Positions 1 to 15,265 of a stretch of 20,401 bases of DNA are shown piece after piece. Made by a program: the position numbers and the translations under genes. The number at the start of each line of letters is the position of its first letter. Positions within the stretch are counted from its first letter, which is position 1. A model generated the notes under the pieces. The model saw only the letters and a program-made list of their open reading frames with translations, did not search any database and was not told the DNA's origin. This DNA is from a virus. Taxonomy: Duplodnaviria; Heunggongvirae; Uroviricota; Caudoviricetes. The DNA lies in IMG/VR virus record IMGVR_UViG_3300046820_000635; one strand, given 5' to 3'.

Positions 1-30
1 TCGCAGGTTCGAACCCTGCATCATCCACCA
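1..30 (+). tRNA. 3' end of a tRNA or tmRNA, truncated by the window edge
   Basis: T-arm GCAGG-TTCGAAC-CCTGC, then ATCATCC-A-CCA. U70 and the ...TCCACCA end fit Ala-type identity (tRNA-Ala or tmRNA). Confidence 0.8.
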
Positions 31-130
31 TATGCAAACACATTAACCGGTATCGTAGCAGTACCGCTGGTGCTACGGGAAACAGTGGGGTCGAACCCCA
101 CAGCCAGGTTCGTTAGTGTGTTTCCATATG
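29..130 (+). ncRNA. Long-stem, partly tRNA-like structured RNA
   Basis: CATATG-C-AAACACATTAAC (29-47) pairs with GTTAGTGTGTTT-C-CATATG (112-130). Inside are hairpin CGTAGCA/TGCTACG (54-77) and a T-arm-like GTGGG-GTCGAAC-CCCAC (85-101). Confidence 0.5.
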
Positions 131-320
131 TTTTTGGTTAGCTGTAGTTTAAGTGAAAGCCTGAGTGTTTCCCGACGGGGATTAGCAAGGGACGCGATAA
201 GTTAGTAGACGAAGATAACAATGGGCCCTGCGTTGTTGGATGCTGCTAATGATGACAACAGAATACCGTCCAACGGAGGACGAGGTGCTCAGAGTTGAGC
301 CAGCTAACCAAAAATATATG
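125..320 (+). ncRNA. Structured RNA with tRNA-like ends (core 136-310, ending in CCA)
   Basis: 125-144 pairs with 301-320 (20 bp, one G-U). D-arm-like TAGTTT-AAGTG-AAAGC; helices 161-166/287-292, 181-187/244-250, 232-237/254-259, 267-271/278-282. Confidence 0.55.
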
Positions 321-395
321 CCGCGGTAGCTCATCAGGTAGAGCAGCAGACTGAAAATCTGTGTGTGGCTGGTTCGAGTCCAGCTCGTGGCACCA
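320..395 (+). tRNA. tRNA-Phe(GAA)
   Basis: Full cloverleaf, loop CT-GAA-AA, encoded CCA. Confidence 0.97.
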
Positions 396-400
396 TGTAT

Positions 401-483
401 GCGACTGTGGCGTAATTGGTAGCCGCAACAGACTTAAAATCTGTCGTTTATTCGTACCGGTTCGAGTCCGGTCAGTCGCACCA
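401..483 (+). tRNA. tRNA-Leu(TAA)
   Basis: ACAGA-CT-TAA-AA-TCTGT, extended variable region, CCA. Confidence 0.95.
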
Positions 484-486
484 TGT

Positions 487-562
487 GCCCTGGTGGTGGA
501 ATGGTATACACACCGGTCTAAGAAGCCGTTCGCTGCGAGTTCGAGTCTCGCCTAGGGCACCA
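487..562 (+). tRNA. Atypical tRNA-Leu(AAG) with A34 and a short variable loop
   Basis: Cloverleaf with loop CT-AAG-AA, Leu-type D loop and 5-nt variable region. Acceptor stem GCCCTGG/CTAGGGC-A-CCA is identical to the tRNA-Leu(TAG) at 683. Confidence 0.8.
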
Positions 563-593
563 AAAATATTTTCACATTGTTAACCAAAATATG

Positions 594-622
594 TTGACAG
601 GTGATAAATTAGAACATATACT
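594..622 (+). promoter_or_regulatory. Sigma70-type promoter
   Basis: TTGACA-17 nt-TATACT, upstream of tRNA-Leu(TAG) and the GOLLD-like RNA. Confidence 0.8.
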
Positions 623-682
623 ATATAGATGCTGTTAACAAACAGCAACAAATGTTCTTTAAAAAGTTAGTGTAAGAATTAT

Positions 683-767
683 GCCCTGGTGGCGAAATTG
701 GTAGACGCACCAGATTTAGGTTCTGGCGCTGAAAGGCGTGTCGGTTCGAGTCCGACCTAGGGCACCA
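683..767 (+). tRNA. tRNA-Leu(TAG)
   Basis: CCAGA-TT-TAG-GT-TCTGG, long variable arm, CCA. Confidence 0.97.
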
Positions 768-770
768 TAG

Positions 771-884
771 TTCTTATAGTTCTGTATACGAAGGCGTAGG
801 CCACGCTGATGTGACGGAGCACAGCTTGATGTTTTTCTTCAGGTCTGCAGGTTCGACTCCTGCAAGTGTACAGAACTATAAGAA
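771..884 (+). ncRNA. tRNA-like RNA with an extended (16-19 bp) acceptor-like stem
   Basis: Perfect inverted repeat TTCTTATAGTTCTGTA (771-786)/TACAGAACTATAAGAA (869-884). It encloses a D-arm-like GCGT-AGGCC-ACGC, an irregular middle arm and a canonical T-arm GCAGG-TTCGACT-CCTGC. Confidence 0.6.
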
Positions 885-890
885 TTGATA

Positions 891-1779
891 TTTAAGGGCA
901 GCTTAATGTCCTGTAGCGTATGGTTCGCCCAGCGTTACGAAGAATAACTCCTGTGAGGGAGCCAACGATGGAATGCCTACATACCATCGCCAGCAATGGT
1001 TCATTTAAGCAAGCCTGCTCACTACCGTGAGGTAGCGTTCACTGACAAAACCGGTGGATGTAACAATGAAGCAAGTGTATGGGGAAGAACGCACATCGAC
1101 TAGCCTGCAAGGGAACTAGGGTGTGTGAAAAGTAACAGGTGGTGCTGACTTCCATACAAAACCAACTTGCGAATTGGTATGAGAAAGGGTAGCGTTATGT
1201 TCCGAGGGGTCGCTCCTAAGGGGTATAGCGCAATGTTAATGGTTAGTGGACGTAGTAATACGGACACCGATCGTGAAACATCACTGATTACTCCGCGAGA
1301 GGAAAGGTACGTGGTGTGTTGTATTGGGTATGCCAAAAGCGTATTCAGCAACTGAGGCAGCACATCATTGTAGGTTGCAAGTAGCTCATTTGGTAGAGCA
1401 TCTGTCTCTTAAACAGACTGTAGTTGGTTCGATTCCAACCTCGTTAACAAAACGCAAAGACTGCCTCGGTCGTATGTGAAAAGCATCTAATGCTTGACAC
1501 GCAAGTGAATCAAGTCTTACAAAACTCGCAAGGTGGCGTAAGTTTGTACTAGAAGTTTCGTAGCTCGCAAGGCTTAATGGTTCGCAAGATCAACGGAGAA
1601 GAAGGTACAGAGTAGCATACGATGACAAGACTACTGCCTGTCTTTAAAAACGGCGATGCTGGTAACAGACTAGAATACATAGCAATATGGTTTTAGTGGA
1701 AGTCGAGAGAAGGTATGCTCGCAAGGCGTACTATAATGCTCGAGGTGTTACTAGGTTAGGATGTATTCTCAGTCCGCCA
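891..1779 (+). ncRNA. GOLLD-like giant structured RNA
   Basis: ~890 nt with no credible ORF, inside a phage tRNA array. Many GNRA-capped hairpins (GCAA, GUGA, GCGA), a long-range helix 891-901/1638-1648, and an embedded tRNA. The 3' end GTATTCTCAGTCC resembles the GOLLD 3' terminus as I recall it (not searched). Confidence 0.65.
1374..1449 (+). tRNA. Degenerate tRNA-Lys(CTT) embedded in the large RNA
   Basis: D arm (TAGCTCATTTGGTAGAGC), anticodon arm TCTGT-CT-CTT-AA-ACAGA and T arm are intact. The acceptor stem is mismatched and there is no CCA. Confidence 0.7.
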
Positions 1780-1859
1780 CTATATTAAAGCACATTGTTT
1801 AAACCGCGGCTGATTTTAAAGTCGGATGAAGGCGAAACTAACAGTGTGTTTCAATATAG
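1780..1859 (+). ncRNA. Small RNA closed by a 20-bp stem
   Basis: CTATATTAAAGCACATTGTT (1780-1799) pairs with AACAGTGTGTTTCAATATAG (1840-1859), one mismatch. The arm sequences resemble those of the 29-130 element. Confidence 0.5.
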
Positions 1860-1860
1860 T

Positions 1861-1935
1861 GGCCAGGTGGCAGAGCGTTTATGCGCTAGATTGCAAATCT
1901 GGATTAGGATGGTTAAACTCCATCCCTGGCCTCCA
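1861..1935 (+). tRNA. tRNA-Cys(GCA)
   Basis: CTAGA-TT-GCA-AA-TCTGG, U73, CCA. Variant T loop TTAAACT with D-loop GT in place of GG. Confidence 0.9.
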
Positions 1936-1941
1936 TATATT

Positions 1942-2017
1942 GCCTGGTTAACTCAGTTGGTAGAGTTCTGTCTTTACACGGCAGCTGTCGGCGGTTCGAG
2001 CCCGTCACCAGGTACCA
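1942..2017 (+). tRNA. tRNA-Val(TAC)
   Basis: CTGTC-TT-TAC-AC-GGCAG, CCA. Confidence 0.96.
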
Positions 2018-2023
2018 AACATT

Positions 2024-2111
2024 GGAGTATTGGCCGACCGGTTAAGGCAGCAGTTTGCTAAACTGTCGTTCAGAAATGGGCGAGTAGGTTCGATTCCTAC
2101 ATACTCCGCCA
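2024..2111 (+). tRNA. tRNA-Ser(GCT)
   Basis: Loop TT-GCT-AA, long variable arm, G73, CCA. Confidence 0.95.
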
Positions 2112-2132
2112 TATTACACACAAGGAAAATAA

Positions 2133-2312
2133 ATGTTAAAACCAACTAAGACGTACAAAATGAGCAAGTCACTCAAGACCAGCTTGGCACTGAGTGGCTA
2201 TCAAGACCCACATCGTAAGGGTCAATGGAAACGTGCCATGATCGATGCGGAGTTGGCCGCAGCAATTCAGCCCAAGCGTGAAAAGTCACGCCGTGACGCA
2301 CCTTCTGCATAA
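2133..2312 (+). CDS. Hypothetical basic protein, 59 aa (MLKPTKTYKMSK...RRDAPSA), not in the ORF track
   Basis: AAGGA Shine-Dalgarno; TAATG coupling to the next gene. Confidence 0.75.
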   Translation: MLKPTKTYKMSKSLKTSLALSGYQDPHRKGQWKRAMIDAELAAAIQPKREKSRRDAPSA

Positions 2313-2899
2313 TGAACAAAGAGCTCTGGCCGTTATTTTCTAAGCCTATTTTTAGGACTCCGATAGATTTATCTAATCTAGATCTAAGCAAGATCAAGTG
2401 GGCAAGAAACTATAACAACTGGATCAGTGAAAATCAGAATGTGTTGGATCAACCCGATTTTCAAAATCTTCGAGAGAGTGTATACGGTGGCTTGTCGGAA
2501 TACTTTTATGGCGTTATGAATGCCAGCAACAATGTAGAAATCTACATTACTGAAAGTTGGTTTAATAAAACAGAAAAAGGTCAAAGCCACCATAGGCATT
2601 GGCACCCGAATAGTCTAGTTTCAGGCATTGTTTATATTGCATCTGAAGGTACTAGTGGCAGTACAAGATTCATAACAAGTCAGTTTGATACCATCGAGTA
2701 TAATATTTCAGAATCAAATATATACAACTCTAGAAGTTGGGGTATAATACCAGAAGTTAATACTATGATGTTATTCCCATCAAATGTAGAACATTTGGTA
2801 GAAGAATACCTAGGAGAGTCTCCTAGGATTACATTGAGTTTTAATACATTTGTCAAAGGCAATATTAATGTTGATCCGTTGACTCGACTAAGTTTATAG
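2312..2899 (+). CDS. 2OG-Fe(II) oxygenase-like protein (TIGR02466-like)
   Basis: ESWFN...HHRHWHPNSLVSGIVY...LFPSNVEHLV...RITLSFN pattern. Confidence 0.8.
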   Translation: MNKELWPLFSKPIFRTPIDLSNLDLSKIKWARNYNNWISENQNVLDQPDFQNLRESVYGGLSEYFYGVMNASNNVEIYITESWFNKTEKGQSHHRHWHPNSLVSGIVYIASEGTSGSTRFITSQFDTIEYNISESNIYNSRSWGIIPEVNTMMLFPSNVEHLVEEYLGESPRITLSFNTFVKGNINVDPLTRLSL

Positions 2900-2907
2900 G
2901 TTTAATC

Positions 2908-3165
2908 ATGGTAGCAAGGAACGATATTACTGGAGATTCAATCCAGACCAAAGGCGTTAACAATGCCTATCGTGATCATTACGATAACATTTTTAGGAAA
3001 GATAAAATGCAAGTTCGAGTAGAAGAAAAGGCAGAAGACATCGGACGTTGCGGTTGCGGCCGCAGTCCTACAGGCAAGTGCATTGGCTGGCACGGTTTGA
3101 GTGAAGAAGCATTCCAGGCACGATTAGCCGAATTTAAAGAGCAAAAAGAAGCGTCCGATAAGTAA
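2908..3165 (+). CDS. Small protein with a CDGSH-like Fe-S/Zn motif
   Basis: CGCGRSPTGKCIGWH resembles C-x-C-x2-S-x3-P-x-C-D-G-S-H. A possible internal in-frame start at 3007 follows AGGAAA. Confidence 0.6.
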   Translation: MVARNDITGDSIQTKGVNNAYRDHYDNIFRKDKMQVRVEEKAEDIGRCGCGRSPTGKCIGWHGLSEEAFQARLAEFKEQKEASDK

Positions 3166-3179
3166 AAGAATAGAGTTTG

Positions 3180-3211
3180 CCATTATCGCATAAATAAATG
3201 CGATAGCGGAG
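3180..3211 (+). promoter_or_regulatory. Hairpin containing a TAAATA late-type box and overlapping the HNH ribosome-binding site
   Basis: CC-A-TTATCGCAT-AAATAA-ATGCGATAG-C-GG. TAAATA is at 3191-3196, GGAG at 3208-3211 and the ATG at 3218. Confidence 0.55.
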
Positions 3212-3217
3212 AGCTTT

Positions 3218-3664
3218 ATGAATAATGGAAGATATTACACAGAGTCTTACAAAGCAGGGCAAGCAGCAAAGATAGATAGAAAATATGGTCCTATGCAGGA
3301 TCATATAAAAATCTGTAAATGTTGTGGTAAAGAATATACCTGGCAGGGTAGATTGCATACAAAGGCTTACGCAGAATCTATGTTTTGTAGTAGAAGTTGT
3401 GCTAACAATAGAAGTGAATGGTGGAAAGATAATGCCACTCGTTATAAAACTATTGCATCACACAATCATACTATGAAATGTGTAATATGTGGATTCGATA
3501 AGATTGTTGCTGTTCATCACATTGATGAAAATAAGAAAAACAATGATCCGTCTAATCTAATACCGTTATGTCCAAATCATCACGAAATGGTACATAGCAA
3601 ATGGAAAGAAGAAGTTATTCCGTATATAACGGAATGGCAAAAGAAATATGGGCTGTTGGTATAG
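3218..3664 (+). CDS. HNH endonuclease (free-standing homing type)
   Basis: CVICGFDKIVAVHHIDENKKNNDPSNLIPLCPNHHEMVH, with N-terminal CxxC and CSRSC zinc motifs. Confidence 0.9.
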   Translation: MNNGRYYTESYKAGQAAKIDRKYGPMQDHIKICKCCGKEYTWQGRLHTKAYAESMFCSRSCANNRSEWWKDNATRYKTIASHNHTMKCVICGFDKIVAVHHIDENKKNNDPSNLIPLCPNHHEMVHSKWKEEVIPYITEWQKKYGLLV

Positions 3665-3724
3665 TTGGGAACACAGTAGCTTTGCAAGCTTCAGTCCCCG
3701 GTTCGATCCCGGGACGGTCCACCA
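3650..3724 (+). tRNA. tRNA-Ala(TGC)
   Basis: Loop TT-TGC-AA, G3:U70, CCA. The 5' end overlaps the last 15 nt of the HNH gene. Confidence 0.93.
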
Positions 3725-3734
3725 AGTTTTAAAT

Positions 3735-3810
3735 GCCGTCATAGCTCAGTTGGTAGAGCAACTCACTTGTAATGAGAAGGTCCCGTGTTCGATTCATGGT
3801 GACGGCACCA
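3735..3810 (+). tRNA. tRNA-Thr(TGT)
   Basis: Loop CT-TGT-AA, CCA. Confidence 0.95.
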
Positions 3811-3817
3811 AATATAT

Positions 3818-3891
3818 GCGGGATTAGTTTAATGGTAAAACGAGATCCTTCCAAGTTCAAGTCAGCGGTTCGATTCCGCTATCCCGCTCCA
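3818..3891 (+). tRNA. tRNA-Gly(TCC), copy 1
   Basis: Loop CT-TCC-AA, U73, CCA. The anticodon stem is weak (AGATC/GTTCA). Confidence 0.88.
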
Positions 3892-3898
3892 CATATAT

Positions 3899-3975
3899 TC
3901 CCTGATAGCTCAGTTGGTAGAAGCACTTGACTGTTAATCAAGGTGTCGCTGGTTCGAGCCCAGCTCGGGGAGCCA
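3899..3975 (+). tRNA. tRNA-Asn(GTT)
   Basis: CTTGA-CT-GTT-AA-TCAAG, G73, CCA. Confidence 0.96.
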
Positions 3976-3982
3976 ATAAAGG

Positions 3983-4011
3983 TTGACAACATCCTTAAAA
4001 TGTTGTATACT
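3983..4011 (+). promoter_or_regulatory. Sigma70-type promoter
   Basis: TTGACA-17 nt-TATACT. The inverted repeat ACAACAT/ATGTTGT spans the spacer. Confidence 0.8.
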
Positions 4012-4038
4012 AGTTTTGTTGTCTAGCAATAGGCAACC

Positions 4039-4263
4039 GGTGAAGTGAAGGGTAGATTAGGAAAGACAAACATTAGCTTGCAATGCTAATGATACAACTC
4101 TGGCAATCGTCTTGAAAACGATCGTACTTGTGTGAACCGATTCTATAATATCCTGTCATTTGCTGATCGGAAATTTACAAGTCTCTGTAGCCTGTCTATT
4201 GAAACTTGTCCGGGGATGCCTAAACAGCTACCCACTGTACATTGTCCGGTCTTTTACTTGACC
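4039..4263 (+). ncRNA. Structured ~225-nt RNA or 5' leader of the omega gene
   Basis: Closing helix 4039-4051/4251-4263. Other helices: GGGTAG/CTACCC (4050-55/4228-33), CATTAGC/GCTAATG, ATCGT/ACGAT, ACTTGT/ACAAGT, CCGAT/ATCGG. Confidence 0.5.
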
Positions 4264-4296
4264 TTTCGCTGACCCGTCATATTAAGGAAACAAACA

Positions 4297-4539
4297 GTGG
4301 CACGAATTACATCAGAAGCAGCAGTCGAAGCAATCGGTAACAGATTTAACCTAGTTCTAGCAGCCAGTCAAAGAGCGCGAGAACTAAAGAACGGCCACTT
4401 GCCGATGATCCAATCTAACAACGGTCCCATTCTTACCGCATTAAAAGAAATTGAACAAAAGAAATACACACTAAAAGACTATTTGGAATCTATTCCAAGA
4501 AAGAAAAAAGGACAGAGAGATGAATATTACCCTTCGTAA
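4297..4539 (+). CDS. rpoZ: RNA polymerase omega subunit homolog
   Basis: MARIT...AVEAIGNRFNLVLAASQRAREL...ALKEI matches the omega signature. GTG start after AAGGA. Confidence 0.85.
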   Translation: MARITSEAAVEAIGNRFNLVLAASQRARELKNGHLPMIQSNNGPILTALKEIEQKKYTLKDYLESIPRKKKGQRDEYYPS

Positions 4540-5092
4540 AGCAAACGCACTTCAGCAATCTATTCAAGATGCTATCAAAGGTATCAAGATTGAAACCACT
4601 GTTTCTATCAGTGAGTTTCAGGATGTGAACGCTGAGTTGGCTAAGGCCAACGCTACCCTTGTAACTAATGATGCTCGTCGTCAAAAGTTGTTGGTAGCAC
4701 TCTACAACATTCGCAGTCTTGTTGGTACAGCCAATGCAAACTGCGGTATTGATTTGAATCTTGCCAAGGCTGCATTTATTGACAAGCGTATGGTTCAACT
4801 GCAAGAGATTGCAGATGCAGATCATATCACTGATTTGAATGTCATTAACGGTAAGCTGGAAAAGATTCGTAACCGTAAAGACGAAGGCCGCGCTAGCCTG
4901 TACGGATACGACGACAGCGTTAAAACGTCTATTGTTGATCCAGTTCAGCTTGATCAGGCAAAGACTGAGGTTAAAAATCTCAAGAAGCAGAAGCAAAAAC
5001 TCAATGACGAGATTCTTGAGTTGAACATCAAGACAGAGATTCCTCTGAGCGAAGATGTTGTGGCAACACTGGCAGGGGAAGGTTTGATCTAA
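4520..5092 (+). CDS. Hypothetical helical/coiled-coil protein, 190 aa
   Basis: Long ORF with phage-like codon usage, overlapping the end of rpoZ. Confidence 0.8.
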   Translation: MNITLRKANALQQSIQDAIKGIKIETTVSISEFQDVNAELAKANATLVTNDARRQKLLVALYNIRSLVGTANANCGIDLNLAKAAFIDKRMVQLQEIADADHITDLNVINGKLEKIRNRKDEGRASLYGYDDSVKTSIVDPVQLDQAKTEVKNLKKQKQKLNDEILELNIKTEIPLSEDVVATLAGEGLI

Positions 5093-5094
5093 CA

Positions 5095-5289
5095 GACCCC
5101 GGGTTCCGAGCAACCGTTATTGCTTGGGGTTATTGAATAGACCAAACTATTCACTGTGCGTAGGATCTACAGCAAGGCCTGTTCGGCGACTTGAGAGTAT
5201 CCTAGGTTAACGAATAACAGTTTCCAAAAACTGTAACGTGGACAGAGTAACCGCTCAGTCTAGGGCCTATGTGGTGTAGGTAGCTAGAC
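5095..5289 (+). ncRNA. Multi-hairpin structured RNA (~195 nt)
   Basis: Helices 5106-13/5120-27, 5134-40/5147-53, 5161-66/5199-5204, 5217-22/5229-34, 5258-63/5284-89. No ORF. Confidence 0.5.
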
Positions 5290-5435
5290 ACTTTTGTTAA
5301 TGGTATAGCTCGTTGACCAATGTACACGGTTAACCTTGTCCAAAGCGGGAAGCCTATGATACTAGTAACTGGTTCTGCCTAGCAGACCAACAATAGGTAG
5401 CAAAGAGGATAGCAAACTGTACCATTAACAAAAGT
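5290..5435 (+). ncRNA. Structured RNA closed by a 16-19 bp stem
   Basis: Perfect inverted repeat ACTTTTGTTAATGGTA/TACCATTAACAAAAGT. Internal helices GTTGACC/GGTTAAC, GCCTAT/ATAGGT, TCTGC/GCAGA. Confidence 0.55.
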
Positions 5436-5439
5436 TTGA

Positions 5440-5514
5440 AGCAGGGTGGAGAAGTGGTATCTCGGGAGTCTCATAAGCTCCAGGTCGGCAGTTCGATTCT
5501 GTCCCTTGCAACCA
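5440..5514 (+). tRNA. tRNA-Met(CAT), initiator-like body
   Basis: Loop CT-CAT-AA, 1:72 mismatch, G2-C71, C3-G70 and A11-U24. It lacks the three consecutive G-C pairs in the anticodon stem. Confidence 0.88.
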
Positions 5515-5520
5515 AGTTTT

Positions 5521-5597
5521 CCGTGTGTAGCTCAGCCTGGTAGAGCTCCTGGTTTGGGACCAGGTGGTCGCATGTTCGAATCGTGTCACACGGACCA
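5521..5597 (+). tRNA. tRNA-Pro(TGG)
   Basis: CCTGG-TT-TGG-GA-CCAGG, CCA. Confidence 0.96.
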
Positions 5598-5608
5598 GTA
5601 TCAAATAG

Positions 5609-5614
5609 TAAATA
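5609..5614 (+). promoter_or_regulatory. Candidate late-promoter box TAAATA
   Basis: Lies 9 nt upstream of tRNA-Gly copy 2; the same hexamer precedes several other genes. Confidence 0.35.
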
Positions 5615-5623
5615 TAATCACAC

Positions 5624-5697
5624 GCGGGGTTCGTATAGTGGTAATACCTTAGCCTTCCAAGCTAATGCTGAGAGTTCGATTCTCTTACCCCGCTCCA
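5624..5697 (+). tRNA. tRNA-Gly(TCC), copy 2
   Basis: TTAGC-CT-TCC-AA-GCTAA, U73, CCA. Confidence 0.95.
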
Positions 5698-5703
5698 TAA
5701 TAT

Positions 5704-6273
5704 ATGATACCAGTAATCGACCAAAACGAAATCTTTAAAAAGTTTGATTTTAGTTCCACGATCAGTAAAGAAGATAATACAGAAGCCATAGGCATAATAC
5801 AGAATATTATCGCTGGTGGGAACTATTTTACAAACAGTCCCAAGTATCAAACTAAAGAAAACATATTTTCCAGACAGGAAGCTGTATGGTTAAAATATAG
5901 AATGAGTTTCCTATTTTCAGTTTTTATGTACTTGGGTAAAGAGGTCAAGGTAAGCAATATGATGGCATGGTCTTTTATGACTAATCTGTCAACTGCCGAA
6001 GATAGAAATCGATACTGGCATCATCATCAACACAAAGCAGATAAAAATATGCTCAGCGGCATTATGTATCTGCACATTCCCGCCGATGTCAAAGACATGG
6101 ACTATTGTGGTACAGAAATGGCACCCAATGGCCCCGAAGGCGATGGTAAGTTTTTTATAAAGCCATCGTTCAATAGTTGGCTAATATATCCTAGTAAAGA
6201 ATGGCATCGGCCAGGCATTGTTCAAAGTAACGAATATAGATTTGTTCTGGCTGCTGACATTGAGTACGAATAA
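5704..6273 (+). CDS. 2OG-Fe(II) oxygenase-like protein
   Basis: AWSF...YWHHHQH...LSGIMYL...GTE...IYPSKEWHRP...RFVLA double-stranded beta-helix pattern. Confidence 0.7.
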   Translation: MIPVIDQNEIFKKFDFSSTISKEDNTEAIGIIQNIIAGGNYFTNSPKYQTKENIFSRQEAVWLKYRMSFLFSVFMYLGKEVKVSNMMAWSFMTNLSTAEDRNRYWHHHQHKADKNMLSGIMYLHIPADVKDMDYCGTEMAPNGPEGDGKFFIKPSFNSWLIYPSKEWHRPGIVQSNEYRFVLAADIEYE

Positions 6274-6348
6274 CTGGCGTTAGTATAATGGATAATACAG
6301 CGAGCTTCTACCTCGCGAATGTGGGTTCGATTCCTGCACGCCGGACCA
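6274..6348 (+). tRNA. tRNA-Arg(TCT)
   Basis: GCGAG-CT-TCT-AC-CTCGC, CCA. Confidence 0.94.
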
Positions 6349-6377
6349 TTGACTTTGCTCTTATATCAGTTTACTAT
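6349..6377 (+). promoter_or_regulatory. Sigma70-type promoter, probably giving a leaderless transcript
   Basis: TTGACT-17 nt-TACTAT; the ATG is 6 nt after the -10 box. Confidence 0.55.
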
Positions 6378-6382
6378 TAACT

Positions 6383-6847
6383 ATGAATAATAATTTTAAC
6401 GAATGTTTAAAAGTAGGCAAGGTATGGGAAGCAAGGATTGTTCCTTGGTTGGAAAAATATCTTGGAAAAAAATGGGAAGTAGTAGATACCTCCGATGTTC
6501 ATCGAGATCAAGACGGTGATCAGTTTCCGGACTTTACACTGATAAATCAAGCAACACAAAAAGTATCTTTTATCGATGCTAAGAAGCGTTGCATTTATCG
6601 GCACAAAGGACATAGGCCAAGTTTTGGATTTGATAAAAACTTCTATACCAGCTATACAAATATAGCTAAGAAATACAATACTAAATGTTACGTAGGTTTT
6701 TACGATCCTGCATTTGATGCAAAACATTGGTATTTGTTAGATCTAGATAAACCAGAAGATTTTATCTTTGATTATGGTAACAACGGGTTCGGACAGCCTA
6801 TTTGTTACAGATGGTACGTAGATAATCTACAGAAGTTCAAGCTGTAG
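6383..6847 (+). CDS. PD-(D/E)XK-superfamily nuclease-like protein
   Basis: G-K-V-W-E helix, then FPDFTL...FIDAKKR (PD...D-x-K catalytic pattern). Confidence 0.65.
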   Translation: MNNNFNECLKVGKVWEARIVPWLEKYLGKKWEVVDTSDVHRDQDGDQFPDFTLINQATQKVSFIDAKKRCIYRHKGHRPSFGFDKNFYTSYTNIAKKYNTKCYVGFYDPAFDAKHWYLLDLDKPEDFIFDYGNNGFGQPICYRWYVDNLQKFKL

Positions 6848-6933
6848 TGGGTTGGCAGAGAGGCTTATTGCACCACCTTGGAAAGGTGACGATCCGAAAG
6901 GTTCCGAGAGTTCGAATCTCTCACCCACTGCCA
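6846..6933 (+). tRNA. tRNA-Ser(GGA)
   Basis: Loop TT-GGA-AA, long variable arm, G73, CCA. Confidence 0.93.
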
Positions 6934-6938
6934 GATAT

Positions 6939-7021
6939 GTGCGTTTAGTCTAAATGTTAGGGCGCCATGACGCAGGGCTAGAAACCTTGAGATGCGGGTT
7001 CGAATCCCGTAACGCACACCA
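6939..7021 (+). tRNA. Atypical tRNA with anticodon AGA, an expanded D loop and a 4-nt variable loop
   Basis: Acceptor GTGCGTT/AACGCAC-A-CCA, canonical T arm, anticodon arm CAGGG-CT-AGA-AA-CCTTG. D stem GTC/GAC encloses an ~18-nt loop. Confidence 0.65.
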
Positions 7022-7026
7022 AATAT

Positions 7027-7113
7027 GGAAGGAGAATTCAGCAGGGCTGAACGCTGTTTCGAAAACAGTTGGATCCTATAAGGATTGGGGTTCGAGTCCT
7101 CCTCCTTCCGCCA
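7027..7113 (+). tRNA. tRNA-Ser(CGA)
   Basis: GCTGT-TT-CGA-AA-ACAGT, long variable arm, G73, CCA. The D arm is unusual (TTCAGC/GCTGAA). Confidence 0.88.
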
Positions 7114-7218
7114 AGTTCGGGGGACTGCTAAGAAAACTAGGGATAAGACCTGCCGTTTAACGGGTACCAATAGAATCCTACAAGCTGATACGAACGCAGA
7201 TAACAAGTTCAGCAAACT
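7114..7218 (+). ncRNA. Possible small structured RNA between two tRNAs
   Basis: GTTCG/CGAAC (7115-19/7191-95), TAGG-G-AT/ATCCTA, CCGT/ACGG, GCTGA/TCAGC. The 105-nt spacer is much longer than neighbouring spacers. Confidence 0.35.
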
Positions 7219-7292
7219 GCTCTTATAGTTAAATGGTATAACACTGTCTTGGTATGACAGTATTCGTAGTTCGATTCTACGTGAGAGCACCA
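7219..7292 (+). tRNA. tRNA-Thr(GGT)
   Basis: CTGTC-TT-GGT-AT-GACAG, CCA. Confidence 0.95.
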
Positions 7293-7296
7293 GTAT

Positions 7297-7302
7297 TAAA
7301 TA
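7297..7302 (+). promoter_or_regulatory. Candidate late-promoter box TAAATA
   Basis: 4 nt before the ATG at 7307, with no Shine-Dalgarno sequence. Confidence 0.45.
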
Positions 7303-7306
7303 CACT

Positions 7307-7810
7307 ATGTTTTTATGGCAATATGTAGATTTAGATTCTAACGAAGTTGATAGAGTTAAGGAAGTTTTTAAAAATAATCTTCCTTACAACTTTCATTTCT
7401 TTCAGCATCTTGAAATAGGATTAGATCACTTCATGGGTATGAAGATCAGTAGATGTGCCTTGATACAGGTAATGCCAAAACATCAAGGTAAAATACATAC
7501 TGACATTAGGACAGGTTACGGAGGAGTTTTAGCTATCAATATTCCTTTAATGAACTGCGAAAATAGTCTAACTGAACTATGGTCAACGACCGCAGAAACT
7601 AAAGATCAATATACCGAGAATAATCTTCCTTACAGTGTATTCGAAACAGTTCAATGTACAAAAATAGATCAGTTTATATTAGACCGTCCTGTTATTTTTA
7701 GGACAGATATTCCTCACAGCGTGAAAAATAACAGCATGATGGTTCGTCGAGCTATTAGTCTTAGGTTCAAAGACGACCCCTGGCATTTGGTTGACAACAG
7801 TAACAAATGA
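7307..7810 (+). CDS. 2OG-Fe(II)/cupin-like oxygenase
   Basis: GKIHTD (HxD)...LAINIPL...PVIFRTDIPHSV...RRAISLRF. Confidence 0.65.
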   Translation: MFLWQYVDLDSNEVDRVKEVFKNNLPYNFHFFQHLEIGLDHFMGMKISRCALIQVMPKHQGKIHTDIRTGYGGVLAINIPLMNCENSLTELWSTTAETKDQYTENNLPYSVFETVQCTKIDQFILDRPVIFRTDIPHSVKNNSMMVRRAISLRFKDDPWHLVDNSNK

Positions 7811-7825: not shown

Positions 7826-8056
7826 ATGTATAAAATAATAGGTAAAGAAGAAACCTTTAAAGTTCTTACACTAGCAGAGGCGATGAATGTTGCTAAATCG
7901 ATGAACGAGTTTGTTACCATCGTAGGTGACGACTTTGAAGTATGTGGCATGTTCGGAGTAGACAGCGTCAAAGACGGAAAGTGTCCAGACGGTGTTGCCT
8001 ACGATTGGAACAAGGCAAGTCGAATCGGAAGAGTGAAGAAAGAACGAGTGGCATAA
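7826..8056 (+). CDS. Hypothetical protein, 76 aa
   Basis: Directly behind the promoter; TAATG coupling to pth2. Confidence 0.75.
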   Translation: MYKIIGKEETFKVLTLAEAMNVAKSMNEFVTIVGDDFEVCGMFGVDSVKDGKCPDGVAYDWNKASRIGRVKKERVA

Positions 8057-8436
8057 TGGAACATAAACAAGTCATTGTAATGCGTAAGGATTTAAACATG
8101 CGAAAGGGCAAGTTAGTTGCTCAGGGAGCTCACGCTTCTCTTGGCGCAATTTTAAGTCTTTGTAAGCAGGACGGAGACAAGTTAATTCTTGAAATGGACG
8201 AACGTACTAGGCCTTGGCTTACCGGACGTTTCAAAAAGATCTGTGTTTATGTAAATACTGAACAAGAGTTATTAGATATTCATCAGGAAGCAAAACTACA
8301 TGGACTAGTAACCAGCCTTATACAAGATGCAGGTCTAACAGAGTTCGGTGGTGTCAAAACCTATACCGCCGTTGCAGTAGGTCCAGATCGAGAAGATCGT
8401 ATTGATGCAGTTTGTAAACATTTACCGTTATATTAA
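8056..8436 (+). CDS. pth2: Peptidyl-tRNA hydrolase, PTH2 family (true start 8056, not 7942)
   Basis: KQVIVMRKDLNMRKGKLVAQGAHAS...KKICV...IQDAGLTE...TAVAVGP. Confidence 0.93.
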   Translation: MEHKQVIVMRKDLNMRKGKLVAQGAHASLGAILSLCKQDGDKLILEMDERTRPWLTGRFKKICVYVNTEQELLDIHQEAKLHGLVTSLIQDAGLTEFGGVKTYTAVAVGPDREDRIDAVCKHLPLY

Positions 8437-8446
8437 GGAGAACCAT

Positions 8447-9133
8447 ATGAAACGTGTAATCGAAATTCGTGCCGCAGAAGGTGGCGAAGACAGTAAGCTA
8501 TTTGTAAGTGATCTCGCGACCGCATACAGCAAACTAGGAATGAAACTGGGCTGAACTACCCGCCTGATAGATGTGCGTCAAGGTGAATGCAGTTTAGAAG
8601 TTCAGGGCGCAGATTTATCCGGCTTAGATAACGAGCCAGGTGGACATAGGATACAGCGAGTTCCACCGACCGAAAGGAAGGGGCGTGTCCATACAAGCAC
8701 TGTGACTGTTGCCGTCATAGACCGCATGGAGGAAAATGAATCCTCAGCTATACCAGAGAAAGATTTAAAAGTCGAATGGTATAGCGGTACTGGTGCTGGA
8801 GGTCAACATAGGAACAAACACCAAAACTCATGCCGGATAACCCATATCCCTAGCGGTGTTGTAGTTACAGCACAATGCCGTAGTCGGCAAAATAGTTTTG
8901 ACGAAGCTATGTCAACGTTGCAAGAACGTATTGACAACGAAACTAAAAGACAATATAATAATCACATAGCAAGCGATCGAAAGCAGCAAGTAGGATCAGG
9001 GATGCGAGGAGACAAGATTCGTACCTATAGATTCCAAGACGATCGTGTTCAAGATCACTTGACAGGAAAAACAGCAAAATGTTCATCGGTATTAAAAGGT
9101 AACATAGACCTATTATGGCAAAAGACGATATAA
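8447..9133 (+). CDS. prfA: RF1-type class I peptide release factor lacking domain 1, with an in-frame TGA at codon 36 (8552-8554)
   Basis: AAGGAG Shine-Dalgarno, then ATG 8447: MKRVIEIRAAEGGEDSKLFVSDL...KLG*TTRL. The same frame continues to HRIQRVPPTERKGRVHTS (PxT), GAGGQHRNK and IRTYRFQDDRVQDH. Confidence 0.85.
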
Positions 9134-12951: not shown

Positions 12952-13155
12952 ATGCCAAGAGTAGAACTGAAGACAATCTATCGTGTAGACATCATTGAAA
13001 GCGAACGCGGTTGGGGTCAAAAGATTGACGAAACTATCTACTTCGACAACGAAGCTGAAGCCCGCACCTATGCTATCAACTACAACAACAAATACAATAC
13101 TGCTACCGAAGTACCGGACTGGTATATGCGAGCAGAATATGTAGGAAAGGTCTAA
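12952..13155 (+). CDS. Hypothetical protein, 67 aa (start revised to 12952)
   Basis: AAGGAG Shine-Dalgarno downstream of the promoter; TAATG coupling. Confidence 0.75.
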   Translation: MPRVELKTIYRVDIIESERGWGQKIDETIYFDNEAEARTYAINYNNKYNTATEVPDWYMRAEYVGKV

Positions 13156-13535
13156 TGATGGATAATCAAGCAATGGACGAAGTTATCTTTGATGGCATTC
13201 GTTTTCTTGAAAGTATCACACGACACTATGGTTCCGAAAAAGGTATCGAAGTGTGGGAAAAGATGGGCGAAGCATTTGGTGACGAAATCAAAGGCAAAGT
13301 TTTCTTTAGTATGCTTACTGGTGAGTCCAGCAACCGAGTGCGTATTCAAAAGGGTACCTGCAACCAAGCGGTTGCTGCTATCAAAGCAATTCGCATTGGC
13401 ACAGGACTTGGACTTAAAGACGCCAAAGATGCTTGGGATCTGAGCGGTATGAAAACTGTAACATTGGATGTAGATCACGAAGAAAAGCGTGAAATGGTTA
13501 ATACATTACGAAGTCTAGGAATGATTATATCATGA
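13155..13535 (+). CDS. Protein with a ribosomal protein bL12 (L7/L12) C-terminal-domain-like region
   Basis: VAAIKAIRIGTGLGLKDAKDAWD...MVNTLRSLG resembles the bL12 sequence [24 protein letters not shown]...LKKALEEAG. The N-terminal ~60 aa are unrelated. Confidence 0.7.
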   Translation: MMDNQAMDEVIFDGIRFLESITRHYGSEKGIEVWEKMGEAFGDEIKGKVFFSMLTGESSNRVRIQKGTCNQAVAAIKAIRIGTGLGLKDAKDAWDLSGMKTVTLDVDHEEKREMVNTLRSLGMIIS

Positions 13536-13840
13536 GTATCGAATACACTTTCATCGGCTGGTGCCGAGACGAGGAAGCTAACGCTGACAAAGTCTGGGGC
13601 ATTATGAAACTTACAGGCGATAACTGGCGTGGCACTTATGTTAGCTTTTGGGGTCGCCGTGGCAAAAAGTTACAGACTAAGATGCACCGAGACACCTACG
13701 AATGGGATGTTGAAAAACTAGCCGATTCTAAAGAAAGAAAAGGTTACAAAAAAATCAAACGTGTAGACCTTGACTCTGTGTATCCAGAGTTTCAGGCAGA
13801 CTTGGAAAAGACTGCGTTTTGGTCTATGTTGAAAGTTTAA
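13532..13840 (+). CDS. WGR-domain-like protein
   Basis: ADKVWGI...YVSFWGRRGKKLQ...KERKGYK. Confidence 0.6.
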   Translation: MSIEYTFIGWCRDEEANADKVWGIMKLTGDNWRGTYVSFWGRRGKKLQTKMHRDTYEWDVEKLADSKERKGYKKIKRVDLDSVYPEFQADLEKTAFWSMLKV

Positions 13841-13841
13841 T

Positions 13842-14141
13842 ATGAGTTACTACAACGACATTCCAGAACACACAAAAGAAGCATTGATGAACTATTTCAA
13901 TCATTGCTGGGAACCTGGCAGCTTTTTGATGTCGGTATTAACTAATGATTTATATGGTGCTGCCAGTAGAGCAGATCATATTAATCGTCCGGAGCTTGCT
14001 AGAATTACCATGTGGGTTATTAACGAAGCTCCTTACGGTAGCTATGGTGATCACGAAACAGTTAAGGATTGGCTCAATCGCGGACATCATCAACAAAGAT
14101 ACGAGAAAGAACTGCTCGTAAAGATTTTGAGTACAGAATAA
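13842..14141 (+). CDS. Hypothetical protein, 99 aa
   Basis: Operon packing; PGSFLMSVLTNDL motif. Confidence 0.75.
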   Translation: MSYYNDIPEHTKEALMNYFNHCWEPGSFLMSVLTNDLYGAASRADHINRPELARITMWVINEAPYGSYGDHETVKDWLNRGHHQQRYEKELLVKILSTE

Positions 14142-14218
14142 TGGAACAAGATCGAGAAAAACTTCGTGCTACAATGAGCAAAGAAGAATTAAAAATTCTT
14201 GGAATTAGGGTAAAATGA
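14141..14218 (+). CDS. Small ORF, 25 aa (MEQDREKLRATMSKEELKILGIRVK)
   Basis: TAATG and ATGA couplings fill the gap exactly. Confidence 0.5.
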   Translation: MEQDREKLRATMSKEELKILGIRVK

Positions 14219-14685
14219 CAACACCAAAATTGTATATGTTGATCGGCGTACCAGGTAGCGGCAAAAGCACCTGGATCGCTAATCAGGATTGGACCAAGGA
14301 TATTCCTATTGTTAGCAGCGACAAGTTTATCGACGAACACGCTGCTAAAGAAGGAAAGACCTATAACGAAGTTTTTGCAGACTACGTTAAGATTGCCACA
14401 CAATTGATGGATAACCAAGTATTGATTTGCAAGGCAAATAACACTGACATCATTTGGGATCAAACTAACACCAGCGTCAAGAGCCGTAAGGCAAAGTTAG
14501 ACAAGCTGGAAGGTTACGAAAAGATTGCTGTGGTATTCCGTACTCCTGAGAAAGAAGAACTGGACAAGCGATTGGCTCAACGTGTAGGAAAGCATATTCC
14601 TGCAAACGTCATGGAGTCAATGATCGCTAACTTGCAAGAGCCAACTGAAGAAGAAGGCTTTAAAGAAATCTGGTACGCATCTTGA
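14215..14685 (+). CDS. P-loop kinase (AAA_33 / polynucleotide-kinase-like)
   Basis: LIGVPGSGKSTW, SSDK, IIWDQTNTS...R, LDKRLAQR. Confidence 0.88.
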   Translation: MTTPKLYMLIGVPGSGKSTWIANQDWTKDIPIVSSDKFIDEHAAKEGKTYNEVFADYVKIATQLMDNQVLICKANNTDIIWDQTNTSVKSRKAKLDKLEGYEKIAVVFRTPEKEELDKRLAQRVGKHIPANVMESMIANLQEPTEEEGFKEIWYAS

Positions 14686-14710
14686 CATAGATACAATTTG
14701 GTGTTATACT
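14682..14710 (+). promoter_or_regulatory. Sigma70-type promoter
   Basis: TTGACA-17 nt-TATACT. Confidence 0.8.
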
Positions 14711-14719
14711 AGGAATATT

Positions 14720-15265
14720 ATGAAAACTTATATAACATCAGATTTACATTTCGGACACAAGAACATCATGAAGTTCTGTCCAGTTACACGAGCACGATTT
14801 CGTGATGACGTTTCCTACATGAATGGTATGATGATTAAGGAATGGAACGATTTGATCGAACCAGATGACTTAGTCTATATCTTAGGAGATGTAGCATTTA
14901 TGTCTGGCAGTGATGCTGGACGTATTATGCACGGCTTAAATGGTACTAAGATTTTAATCGAGGGTAACCATGATCGCAAGACTTTAATGGATGCAACATT
15001 CCGTAGTGCGTTTAAGGAAGTTCACTCTTACTTAAACATTACTTACGATGGTCACAAGATTGCCATGTTCCATTATCCTATTGCAGAATGGGATCAGATG
15101 CACAGAGGTGCATTACATTTCTACGGTCACTTACACGGTGGCGATAGTGGCTTGGAGAAATACCGTTGCCGCGATGTAGGGATGGACGCTACAGGAATGA
15201 TTGCTGTCACATTAGACTGGGCAATCGCTAATGTTAAAAACAATGAGATTAAAGGACATCACTAA
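14720..15265 (+). CDS. Calcineurin-like metallophosphoesterase
   Basis: SDLHFGH, LGD, GNHD, FHYP and GHLH motifs. Confidence 0.92.
   Translation: MKTYITSDLHFGHKNIMKFCPVTRARFRDDVSYMNGMMIKEWNDLIEPDDLVYILGDVAFMSGSDAGRIMHGLNGTKILIEGNHDRKTLMDATFRSAFKEVHSYLNITYDGHKIAMFHYPIAEWDQMHRGALHFYGHLHGGDSGLEKYRCRDVGMDATGMIAVTLDWAIANVKNNEIKGHH

What the first reader, a model, noticed from the sequence alone, without database searches (positions are those of the whole stretch)
29..5435. A family of five inter-tRNA RNAs, each clamped by a 16-20 bp terminal helix
Seen: elements 29-130, 125-320, 771-884, 1780-1859 and 5290-5435 each begin and end with long, AU-rich, near-perfect inverted repeats. They enclose unrelated structured interiors of 40-155 nt and sit between tRNAs or other RNAs, so tRNA 5'/3' processing would release them. 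They lack the GC stem plus U-tract of terminators, and their loops are far too large. Established: T4 has two stable RNAs of unknown function (species I and II) in its tRNA cluster, and long dsRNA stems are RNase III substrates or protect ends. Inference: this is a shared biogenesis or stabilisation device, possibly allowing circularisation by the phage Rnl1-like ligase, for a set of undescribed phage small RNAs.
Basis: partly seen in the sequence, partly recalled or inferred. Interest (0 to 1): 0.75.

Follow-up and report, generated by a model that had tools for sequence, protein, structure and literature searches.

The report
Long-stem RNA cassettes between phage tRNAs
In the tRNA cluster of this uncultured giant freshwater phage, every non-tRNA RNA is closed or bracketed by an AU-rich helix of about 20 base pairs that evolves by compensatory changes in hundreds of related phage contigs, most likely a signal that separates and caps the pieces of one long transcript.

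Summary
All five helices are at the stated places. They have 20-24 pairs, against 0.23 such helices expected per window by chance, and all lie in the tRNA array. They are RNA-level structures on the tRNA strand. In related IMG/VR contigs the two arms of each element covary, and G-U pairs outnumber A-C about 7:1 on the tRNA strand.

The five are not one family:
- E1 (29-130) and E4 (1776-1863) share a clamp sequence found in at least 120 contigs. It starts at the upstream tRNA's CCA and often carries a fixed A-C mismatch. Its interiors are hypervariable.
- E3 (768-887) belongs to a conserved tRNA-like family.
- E5 (5290-5435) belongs to a highly conserved family absent from Rfam.
- E2 (125-320) is an orphan.

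E3 and E4 are the bookends of an ~890-nt GOLLD RNA. GOLLD is bracketed this way in nearly every related locus.

Most likely the clamps are double-stranded processing or end-defining signals, like the RNase III stalks of rRNA precursors. No expression or cleavage data could be obtained, and circularisation has no support. Earlier follow-ups in this scan reported the same clamp on other phage DNA. I found no published description.

The parts
1..30 (+). 3' end of an upstream tRNA (T arm, acceptor strand, CCA at 28-30). It matches the 3' end of tRNA-Val(GAC) at the same position in L041.
   Evidence: Sequence; L041 6919-6993.
29..130 (+). E1: class-A clamp (29-51 with 108-130). Its interior has a T-arm-like hairpin and no relative was found.
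   Evidence: Model R1 scores 52 bits on the + strand and 32 on the - strand. No homologue of the interior was found.
125..320 (+). E2: 196-nt element with a 20-bp clamp (125-144 with 301-320) and a branched 156-nt interior. It is an orphan and is absent from the same slot in L041.
320..395 (+). tRNA-Phe(GAA). Its first base is the last paired base of E2.
594..622 (+). Near-consensus sigma-70-type promoter (TTGACA, 17 nt, TATACT) inside the array. It would drive tRNA-Leu, E3, GOLLD, E4 and the following tRNAs.
   Evidence: The block is 94% identical in L041.
683..767 (+). tRNA-Leu(TAG). E3 starts at the next base.
768..887 (+). E3: tRNA-like RNA. It has a 22-bp closing helix, a D-like hairpin, a short 4-bp hairpin in place of an anticodon arm, a covarying variable arm and a T arm. 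It is the 5' bookend of GOLLD.
888..1775 (+). GOLLD RNA, given as context. The conserved 5' half runs to ~1310. The 3' half, 1311-1775, matches RF02032 at 234 bits and has tRNA-Lys(CUU) embedded at 1375-1448.
1776..1863 (+). E4: class-A clamp (1776-1799 with 1840-1863) around a 40-nt variable interior. It is the 3' bookend of GOLLD and abuts tRNA-Cys (1861).
   Evidence: R1 scores 56 bits on the + strand and 34 on the - strand.
3983..4011 (+). Second near-consensus promoter. It would drive the conserved leader, the RpoZ-like ORF, ORF190, E5 and tRNA-Met.
5290..5435 (+). E5: member of a highly conserved structured RNA family, with a 20-bp covarying clamp and a core of about 105 nt. It ends 4 nt before tRNA-Met (5440).
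5440..5514 (+). tRNA-Met(CAT) downstream of E5.

Best explanation
The five helices are RNA structures on the tRNA-sense strand. Each is the closing helix ('clamp') of an independently folding cassette within a polycistronic transcript of tRNAs, GOLLD and small RNAs.

Shown here:
- The clamp is the shared, selected part.
- Its length is held at about 20 bp and it is AU-rich.
- It begins at the CCA of the upstream tRNA, or right after GOLLD or an mRNA, and ends at the 5' end of the next tRNA or of GOLLD.
- Its cargo is interchangeable: a tRNA-like RNA (E3), a strongly conserved RNA of unknown function (E5), variable sequence (E1, E4) or an orphan (E2).

Inferred: the clamp is a double-stranded processing and end-defining signal. 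Host RNase III, which needs about two helical turns of dsRNA, would cut it. This would work as it does for the leader-trailer stalks around 16S and 23S rRNA and the stem around B. subtilis scRNA. The cut would separate tRNAs, GOLLD and cargo, and leave stubs that RNase P and 3' exonucleases finish. Conserved cargoes would be released as small stable RNAs. Where the cargo is unconstrained, the element acts mainly as a cut-out spacer or bookend.
For: 1. Real and non-random. Five helices of 20 or more pairs were found against 0.23 expected. In 131 related loci there were 341 helices of 18 or more pairs, 128 of them within 50 nt of a tRNA.

2. Covariation.
- Class-A clamp (39 sequences): 93% of cells paired; 15 of 20 pairs show changes on both sides; 0 of 500 shuffles reach this; slid registers give 30-50% pairing.
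- E3 family (22 sequences): 26 of 38 pairs are compensatory.
- E5 family (13 sequences): 31 of 49 pairs are compensatory.
- Arms of the same element pair at 17.1 of 18 positions. A 3' arm with the next element's 5' arm (the pairing that would span the tRNAs between) gives 15.1, and random arm pairs give 14.5.

3. RNA level, tRNA strand. In 123 unique elements found with a strand-symmetric pattern and oriented by their tRNAs, G-U pairs number 127 against 17 A-C. One position reads U-G 93, C-G 16, U-A 14. Model R1 scores 10-20 bits higher on the + strand.

4. Measured length. Among 211 unique inter-tRNA gaps of 50-260 nt, terminal-helix length is bimodal, with a second mode at 19-21 bp and none at 15-16. 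Clamps of E3 and E5 relatives, which were found through their interiors, are 16-25 bp.

5. Placement. 97 of 130 elements lie within 10 nt of a tRNA. R1 hits in large contigs, including a 98%-complete 353-kb genome, lie in their tRNA-array regions, apart from one weak hit in G002. GOLLD is bracketed on both sides in nearly every distinct locus, whichever tRNAs flank it.

6. One transcript. There are two 11-of-12 promoters and no + strand terminator in 1-7400.

7. Established knowledge. RNase III cuts stems that bracket rRNAs and B. subtilis scRNA (PMC1935012, PMC8708148; abstracts only, as listed).
Against:
- No RNase III gene was found in five large related contigs, so the enzyme would have to come from an unknown host.
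- Most junctions in these arrays are short (640 gaps under 50 nt, not deduplicated), and only 16% of the 50-260-nt gaps are clamped. Clamps are therefore not needed for tRNA maturation as such.
- Class-A interiors are never reduced to a small loop: the minimum is 19 nt and the mode 50-59 nt in 90 elements. Small interior clusters keep their hairpins through compensatory changes. A pure stem-only cleavage site does not predict either.
- The same cargo occurs in different clamps and slots, which also fits a role in DNA recombination.
Confidence: 0.5

Rival explanations
1. The clamps are not cut. They stay on the mature RNAs as protective and insulating end hairpins. A helix that starts exactly at the 5' end left by tRNA 3' maturation, or ends exactly at the 3' end left by RNase P, would shield GOLLD and the cargo RNAs from 5'-end-dependent RNase E or J and from 3' exonucleases. 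It would also keep neighbouring domains from misfolding with each other.
For: The helices abut tRNA ends to the base. GOLLD always has a hairpin within 0-5 nt of each end. The E3, E5 and 169-nt cargoes are strongly conserved, so they are the functional products and the helix is their P1. The interior never shrinks to a loop.
Against: Stability alone would be met by shorter G+C-rich stems. Instead the stems are AU-rich (30-39% G+C) and held at 19-21 bp, which points to a length-measuring reader. Class-A elements between two tRNAs, such as Lys to Met, protect nothing obvious, and their cargo is not conserved.
Confidence: 0.25
2. The arms act mainly at the DNA level. They would be homology arms or recognition sites that let cassettes (GOLLD, tRNA mimics, other RNAs) be swapped or moved between slots and between co-infecting phages. 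Solitary class-A elements would be the empty sites left behind.
For: The same cargo is found in different clamps and slots. The E3 core sits in a consensus class-A clamp in L174, and the E5 core sits in a class-A-like clamp in L132/L140 and either before GOLLD or before tRNA-Met. GOLLD sits after Tyr, Lys, Leu or Glu tRNAs in different phages, always between clamps. In L007 it lies between two class-A elements at the Lys-Met slot, where many relatives have one. Among 123 unique elements there are 92 unrelated interior clusters. HNH genes are present in the arrays.
Against: There is a strong one-strand G-U bias and a conserved U-G wobble. Orientation always matches the tRNAs. R1 hits in the large contigs are confined to the tRNA-array regions, apart from one weak hit. 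No transposase or integrase lies nearby. Recombination could be a by-product of conserved RNA sequence.
Confidence: 0.1
3. The clamp is the docking site of a specific RNA-binding protein, as the conserved stem of Y RNAs binds Ro, and the cargo is the effector module.
For: The clamp sequence is conserved (AAACACA paired with UGUGUUU) and carries an A-C mismatch at a fixed place: 52% A-C and 62% non-Watson-Crick among 123 elements. Some cargoes are tRNA-like, as in bacterial YrlA.
Against: No TROVE/Ro gene was found in five large related contigs, one of them 98% complete. The Rfam YrlA model gives no hit on any element. The T arm lies next to the 3' strand of the clamp, which is the ordinary tRNA topology and, from my recollection of the YrlA literature, not the YrlA arrangement. 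The E2, E3 and E5 clamps in this window have other sequences.
Confidence: 0.07
4. One reading: the juxtaposed ends are joined by the phage Rnl1-like ligase to give circular small RNAs.
For: An Rnl1-like ligase (15768-16673, phrog_562) lies next to a kinase, a phosphoesterase and an HD protein in the same window.
Against: That gene set is the usual tRNA-repair kit. Ends at the base of a blunt helix are not the broken-loop substrate of T4 Rnl1 (my own knowledge). RNase P and exonuclease products carry 5'-phosphate and 3'-OH, but nothing holds them in a ligatable loop. No data could be obtained.
Confidence: 0.03

Closest known systems
Leader-trailer processing stalks of bacterial rRNA precursors and the stem around B. 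subtilis scRNA, cut by RNase III (PMC8708148, PMC1935012)
   Same: A long helix is formed by the sequences flanking a stable RNA inside a polycistronic transcript. It brings the two ends together next to tRNAs. Its length of about two helical turns suits RNase III.
   Different: Here the same device is repeated many times within one tRNA array. One clamp sequence is shared by hundreds of phage contigs, and its cargo is often small (40-160 nt) and unconserved. Cleavage has not been shown.
T4 species 1 and species 2 RNAs (rnaC, rnaD) in the T4 tRNA cluster
   Same: They are small stable RNAs of unknown function encoded beside phage tRNAs and released by tRNA-type processing. rnaC has a T arm next to its 3' strand, as E1 and E3 do.
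   Different: Neither has a 16-24-bp terminal helix. I did not align them with any window element.
tRNA-like processing elements: mascRNA of MALAT1 and plant mitochondrial t-elements (PMC1920247)
   Same: E3 is a non-decoding tRNA mimic that sits directly at the end of a large non-coding RNA (GOLLD) in many relatives. There it could recruit tRNA-processing enzymes to define that end.
   Different: E3 has a hyper-extended acceptor-like helix (17-22 bp), a long variable arm and no CCA. In other phages it also occurs next to ordinary tRNAs rather than GOLLD.
Bacterial Y RNAs (YrlA, RF02553)
   Same: Both have a long stem formed by the 5' and 3' ends, with a conserved irregularity, plus a modular and sometimes tRNA-like interior.
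   Different: There is no Ro gene and no hit on any element to the Rfam model. By my recollection of YrlA, the topology of the tRNA-like part also differs.
GOLLD RNA (RF02032; PMC12286853)
   Same: It lies in the same array and the same transcript, and it is known to sit near or around phage tRNAs.
   Different: The clamped elements are separate units outside the conserved GOLLD sequence. The cryo-EM paper, searched for 'flank', 'processing', 'tRNA' and 'phage' (12 of 17 matching passages displayed), does not mention flanking hairpins in the passages shown.

Membership tests
RNase III processing stem | Coaxial double-stranded RNA of about 20 bp or more formed by distant flanking segments | tested here: met
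   The helices have 20-24 pairs. In relatives the length mode is 19-21 bp. Covariation supports them.
RNase III processing stem | Staggered cleavage within the helix, dependent on RNase III | not testable with these tools
RNase III processing stem | An RNase III enzyme is available | tested here: inconclusive
   There is no PF14622 match in five large related phage contigs. The host is unknown. RNase III is common in bacteria; the control search matched 8 of 14 genomes.
tRNA (RF00005), tested for E3 and E1 | Cloverleaf with a T arm (GTTCRAnnC loop) next to the 3' acceptor strand | tested here: met
   E3 has a T arm conserved in 22 sequences, plus D-like and variable arms. E1 has a T-arm-like hairpin with loop GTCGAAC.
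tRNA (RF00005), tested for E3 and E1 | A 5-bp anticodon stem with a 7-nt loop, a 7-bp acceptor stem ending in a discriminator base and CCA, and detection by tRNA models | tested here: not met
   In E3 a 4-bp stem with a loop of about 6 nt stands in place of the anticodon arm. The closing helix is 17-22 bp and there is no CCA. ARAGORN and the Rfam tRNA model report nothing at E up to 10.
Bacterial Y RNA (YrlA, RF02553) | Match to the family model and a partner Ro/TROVE protein | tested here: not met
   The only YrlA hits lie over true tRNAs, at 20-24 bits against a threshold of 69. There is no TROVE match in five contigs.
Intrinsic terminator | Short G+C-rich hairpin with a small loop, followed by a U tract | tested here: not met
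   There are no + strand terminator-like sites in 1-7400. The arms are 30-39% G+C and the interiors 40-156 nt.
Dispersed DNA repeat or MITE | Copies scattered through the genome in both orientations, with conserved interiors | tested here: not met
   R1 hits lie in the tRNA-array regions, apart from one weak hit in G002. Orientation follows the tRNAs. There are 92 unrelated interior clusters among 123 elements.
T4 species 1 and 2 RNAs | Structural similarity to rnaC or rnaD | tested here: not met
   Only the position and the T arm of rnaC are shared. Neither has a long clamp. Sequence similarity was not tested by alignment.
Two-piece (permuted) tmRNA with an intervening segment | Detection of tmRNA pieces flanking the element | tested here: not met
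   ARAGORN, which also reports tmRNA, found none in the window. There is no tmRNA family hit in 1-7500 at E up to 10.
GOLLD (RF02032), as context for E3 and E4 | Match above the gathering score | tested here: met
   234 bits against a threshold of 150 at 1311-1775. The 5' half, 885-1310, is conserved and contiguous with it in 14 loci.

The most novel reading that the evidence does not exclude
Giant freshwater phages may use one standard 20-bp 'socket' helix to display an interchangeable, fast-evolving repertoire of small RNAs inside their tRNA arrays. The repertoire would include tRNA mimics, the E5 motif, a 169-nt motif and dozens of lineage-specific hairpins. The cargoes would be the point of the system, for example decoys or antidotes against host tRNA- or RNA-directed defences, or partners of the GOLLD cage. 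The shared socket would serve both their biogenesis and their exchange between phages.
Probability: 0.2. Interest if true: 0.8.

Novelty: new variant of a known kind. Interest (0 to 1): 0.6.

Why it matters
Phage tRNA arrays are usually annotated as tRNAs plus empty spacers. Here the spacers turn out to be an organised system: a conserved, covarying helix of about 20 bp, shared by at least 120 environmental phage contigs. It punctuates the array, brackets the enigmatic GOLLD RNA, and carries at least two strongly conserved RNA families absent from Rfam (the E3 tRNA mimic and the E5 motif).

If the clamps are processing signals, they predict the true ends of GOLLD and how it is released. That bears on current work on its cage structure. 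They also provide handles, in the form of covariance models and defined cassettes, for finding new phage small RNAs and testing what they do in translation takeover or counter-defence.

Tried and rejected
- Rfam at gathering scores and at E up to 10, on the window and on a relative: only tRNAs and GOLLD, nothing on any element.
- Cultured phages, megablast: only tRNA matches. No whole genome is held for the window.
- Y RNA/Ro: rejected.
- Phage-encoded RNase III: none found.
- Terminators: rejected.
- MITE or dispersed repeat: rejected.
- Pairing of arms across the tRNA (leader with trailer) instead of within the element: worse than within-element pairing.
- E2 and the E1 interior: no homologue by blastn or nhmmer in 254 fetched loci. 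An exact 17-nt pattern in IMG/VR gave only two unrelated chance matches. The single metagenome scan, by the neighbouring oxygenase, gave no relative closer than 75-80% amino-acid identity.
- The 169-nt family profile does not match the window.
- Cargo as antisense guide against the window itself: longest complementarity 9-11 nt, which I judge to be about chance level. A 15-nt direct match of E2 to the ligase gene has no extension.
- Interior folding energy of class-A elements: mean z -0.4, so no general excess stability.
- T4 rnaC and rnaD: no clamp.
- Literature searches: no description of such clamps found.
- No complex or structure prediction was attempted.


Full report
**Setting**

The window is part of an uncultured phage. 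Cultured phages match it only at tRNAs, and no genome is held for it. Its relatives are IMG/VR and lake-metagenome contigs of up to 353 kb.

- Bases 1-7300 form a + strand tRNA array: 18 ARAGORN tRNAs, one more found by Rfam, and a partial tRNA at the left edge.
- The array holds a GOLLD RNA. RF02032 matches 1311-1775 at 234 bits, with tRNA-Lys embedded. The block 885-1310 is conserved and contiguous with it in 14 loci, so the RNA is about 890 nt.
- There are two near-consensus sigma-70 promoters, at 594-622 and 3983-4011, and no + strand terminator-like site in 1-7400. The array is therefore probably read as a few long transcripts.

**Observation**

The five inverted repeats are the top local ones. 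They comprise 20-24 pairs. Shuffles give 0.23 such helices per window. Each element folds into the clamped form with z between -3.1 and -6.7. The arms are AU-rich, at 30-39% G+C against 45-61% inside.

The helices begin or end at tRNA ends to the base:
- E1 starts in the CCA of the upstream tRNA.
- E2 ends on G1 of tRNA-Phe.
- E3 starts one base after tRNA-Leu.
- E4 ends in the first three bases of tRNA-Cys.
- E5 ends 4 nt before tRNA-Met.

E1 and E2 share 125-130, so their outer 6 bp cannot form at the same time.

**Comparative evidence: the class-A clamp (E1 and E4)**

A stem search in 131 related loci found 341 helices of 18 or more pairs, 128 of them within 50 nt of a tRNA. About half of the near-tRNA ones carry one clamp sequence, the one shared by E1 and E4. 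Its 5' arm reads roughly ACCAUAUnAAACACAYUA and its 3' arm UAGUGUGUUUnAUAUGGU.

- On 39 aligned members, 93% of cells pair and 15 of 20 pairs show changes on both sides. No shuffle of 500 reaches this, and slid registers give 30-50% pairing.
- Arms pair better within an element (17.1 of 18) than a 3' arm does with the next element's 5' arm, the pairing that would span the intervening tRNAs (15.1), or than random arms do (14.5).
Of 130 elements in these, 97 lie within 10 nt of a tRNA.
- Oriented by the tRNAs, G-U pairs outnumber A-C 127 to 17. One position reads U-G 93, C-G 16, U-A 14. Another is A-C in 52% of elements.
- A covariance model (R1) hits E4 at 56 bits and E1 at 52 bits. The opposite strand scores 20 bits lower.
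- In large contigs, including a 98%-complete 353-kb genome, R1 hits lie in the tRNA-array regions, apart from one weak hit in G002.

This is an RNA helix under selection, not a dispersed DNA repeat.

**Cargo of the class-A clamp**

Class-A interiors differ completely even at the same slot, for example between tRNA-Lys(UUU) and tRNA-Met.
- The 123 unique elements fall into 92 unrelated interior clusters.
- On average the interiors fold no better than shuffles (mean z -0.4).
- They are not free of constraint, however. The interior is never shorter than 19 nt, with a mode of 50-59 nt. Small clusters keep their hairpins by compensatory change. A hairpin with a CAUAG loop recurs in 13 of 42 non-redundant interiors against 2.2 expected.

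E1's interior has a T-arm-like hairpin and no relative. At the same Val-Phe slot, four relatives share a different interior.

**E3**

An interior pattern found about 20 more copies. The 22-sequence alignment gives 38 pairs, 26 of them compensatory. The fold has:
- a closing helix of 17-22 bp, which in about half the members is split by a 2x2 internal loop exactly 7 bp below the T arm;
- a D-like hairpin;
- a 4-bp hairpin in place of an anticodon arm;
- a covarying variable arm;
- a canonical T arm.

It is a non-decoding tRNA mimic that tRNA models do not detect. Its clamp sequence differs between lineages. In L174 it is the class-A consensus clamp.

**E5**

Thirteen distinct copies share 60 invariant columns. 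They have 49 pairs, 31 of them compensatory, including a 20-bp clamp that varies freely in sequence. The family sits either before tRNA-Met or directly before GOLLD. In L132/L140 it sits in a class-A-like clamp. Rfam has no match.

**E2**

E2 has no relative anywhere I could search and is absent from L041 at the same slot. Its clamp therefore rests on the single sequence.

**GOLLD bookends**

In 15 distinct GOLLD loci, a clamped element ends 0-4 nt before GOLLD wherever upstream sequence is available. Another starts 4-5 nt after GOLLD in most of them. This holds although the flanking tRNAs differ: Tyr, Lys, Leu or Glu upstream, and Pro, Met, Val, Tyr, Arg or Cys downstream.
- The 5' bookend can be an E3-type, E5-type, 169-nt-type or class-A element.
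- The identified 3' bookends are E4-type class-A elements.

E3 and E4 of the window are this pair.

**How general the clamp is**

Among 211 unique inter-tRNA gaps of 50-260 nt, helix length is bimodal. Thirty-three gaps (16%) have 14 or more pairs, with a mode at 19-21 and none at 15-16. Shuffles give 0.5%. Most junctions are short: 640 gaps under 50 nt, not deduplicated. Clamps therefore accompany non-tRNA inserts rather than tRNA maturation as such.

**Mechanism**

The fixed length of two helical turns, the AU-richness and the recurrent mismatch point to a reader that measures dsRNA, not to mere stability. The best-known such reader is RNase III, acting as it does on the stalks around rRNAs and B. 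subtilis scRNA (PMC8708148, PMC1935012; abstracts only). This step is inference.
- No phage RNase III or Ro gene was found.
- The host is unknown.
- No RNA data could be obtained.

An uncut protective or insulating role fits the bookend geometry and the conserved cargoes about as well. I rank it second. Exchange of cargo between clamps and slots suggests the conserved arms also act as recombination homology, but the one-strand G-U bias makes that secondary. Circularisation is unsupported.

**Comparison with known systems**

- T4 rnaC shares array position and a T arm but has no clamp. rnaD shares only the position.
- mascRNA and plant t-elements are functional analogies for E3 (PMC1920247).
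- Four literature searches, and a term search within the GOLLD cryo-EM paper, found no description of these clamps.
- Earlier follow-ups in this scan, on other phage DNA, reported the same hairpin. They noted that it starts at the CCA, carries an A-C mismatch and flanks GOLLD, and another note described an E5-like element. I re-derived these points independently here.

Noticed in passing
window 3976-4296: A ~310-nt non-coding leader sits behind the promoter at 3983-4011 and upstream of an RpoZ-like ORF. It is 73-82% identical in 69 related loci. It may be a structured leader or another RNA gene.
   Followed up: partly
window 4297-4539: An 80-aa ORF matches the RNA polymerase omega/Rpb6 family (PF01192, E 7e-13), so the phage appears to encode an omega-like subunit. 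The adjacent 190-aa ORF (4520-5092) has no family match but is conserved in 76 loci.
   Followed up: partly
window 5093-5282: A non-coding stretch lies between ORF190 and E5. Its last ~44 nt (5239-5282) are 91-100% identical in many loci, while the rest varies.
   Followed up: no
window 6939-7018 and 7027-7109: Rfam finds a tRNA (53 bits) that ARAGORN missed. Next to it is a tRNA-Sec-like match below threshold (40 bits against 47).
   Followed up: no
window 7942-9133 and 13155-16673: A translation and RNA-repair island: PTH2 peptidyl-tRNA hydrolase (7942-8436), a shortened RF1-like gene (8573-9133), an L7/L12 C-terminal-like ORF (13155-13535), an AAA_33 kinase (14215-14685), a metallophosphoesterase (14720-15265), an HD protein (15265-15768) and an Rnl1-like RNA ligase (15768-16673).
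   Followed up: partly
L007:8381-8549, L046:7592-7760 and 14 other loci: A 167-177-nt clamped RNA family with a highly conserved core, including a T-arm-like GGAGAAUCGAACUCC. It occupies the same slots as E3 and E5 in other phages. It is absent from this window and has no Rfam match.
   Followed up: partly
L007:5474-6563 compared with the Lys-Met slot in about 15 loci: In L007, GOLLD lies between two class-A elements at the tRNA-Lys/tRNA-Met slot, where most relatives have a single class-A element. This looks like gain or loss of GOLLD by recombination between clamps.
   Followed up: partly
class-A interiors, e.g. L057:7206-7299, L028:51-150: A small hairpin with a CAUAG loop and covarying stem recurs in about a third of otherwise unrelated interiors.
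   Followed up: partly
window 3218-3664: The stop codon of an HNH endonuclease ORF overlaps the start of tRNA-Ala (3650). It is a mobile-type gene inside the array.
   Followed up: no
window 196-210 and 16518-16532: A 15-nt exact direct match between the E2 interior and the ligase ORF, with no similarity beyond it. Probably chance.
   Followed up: yes
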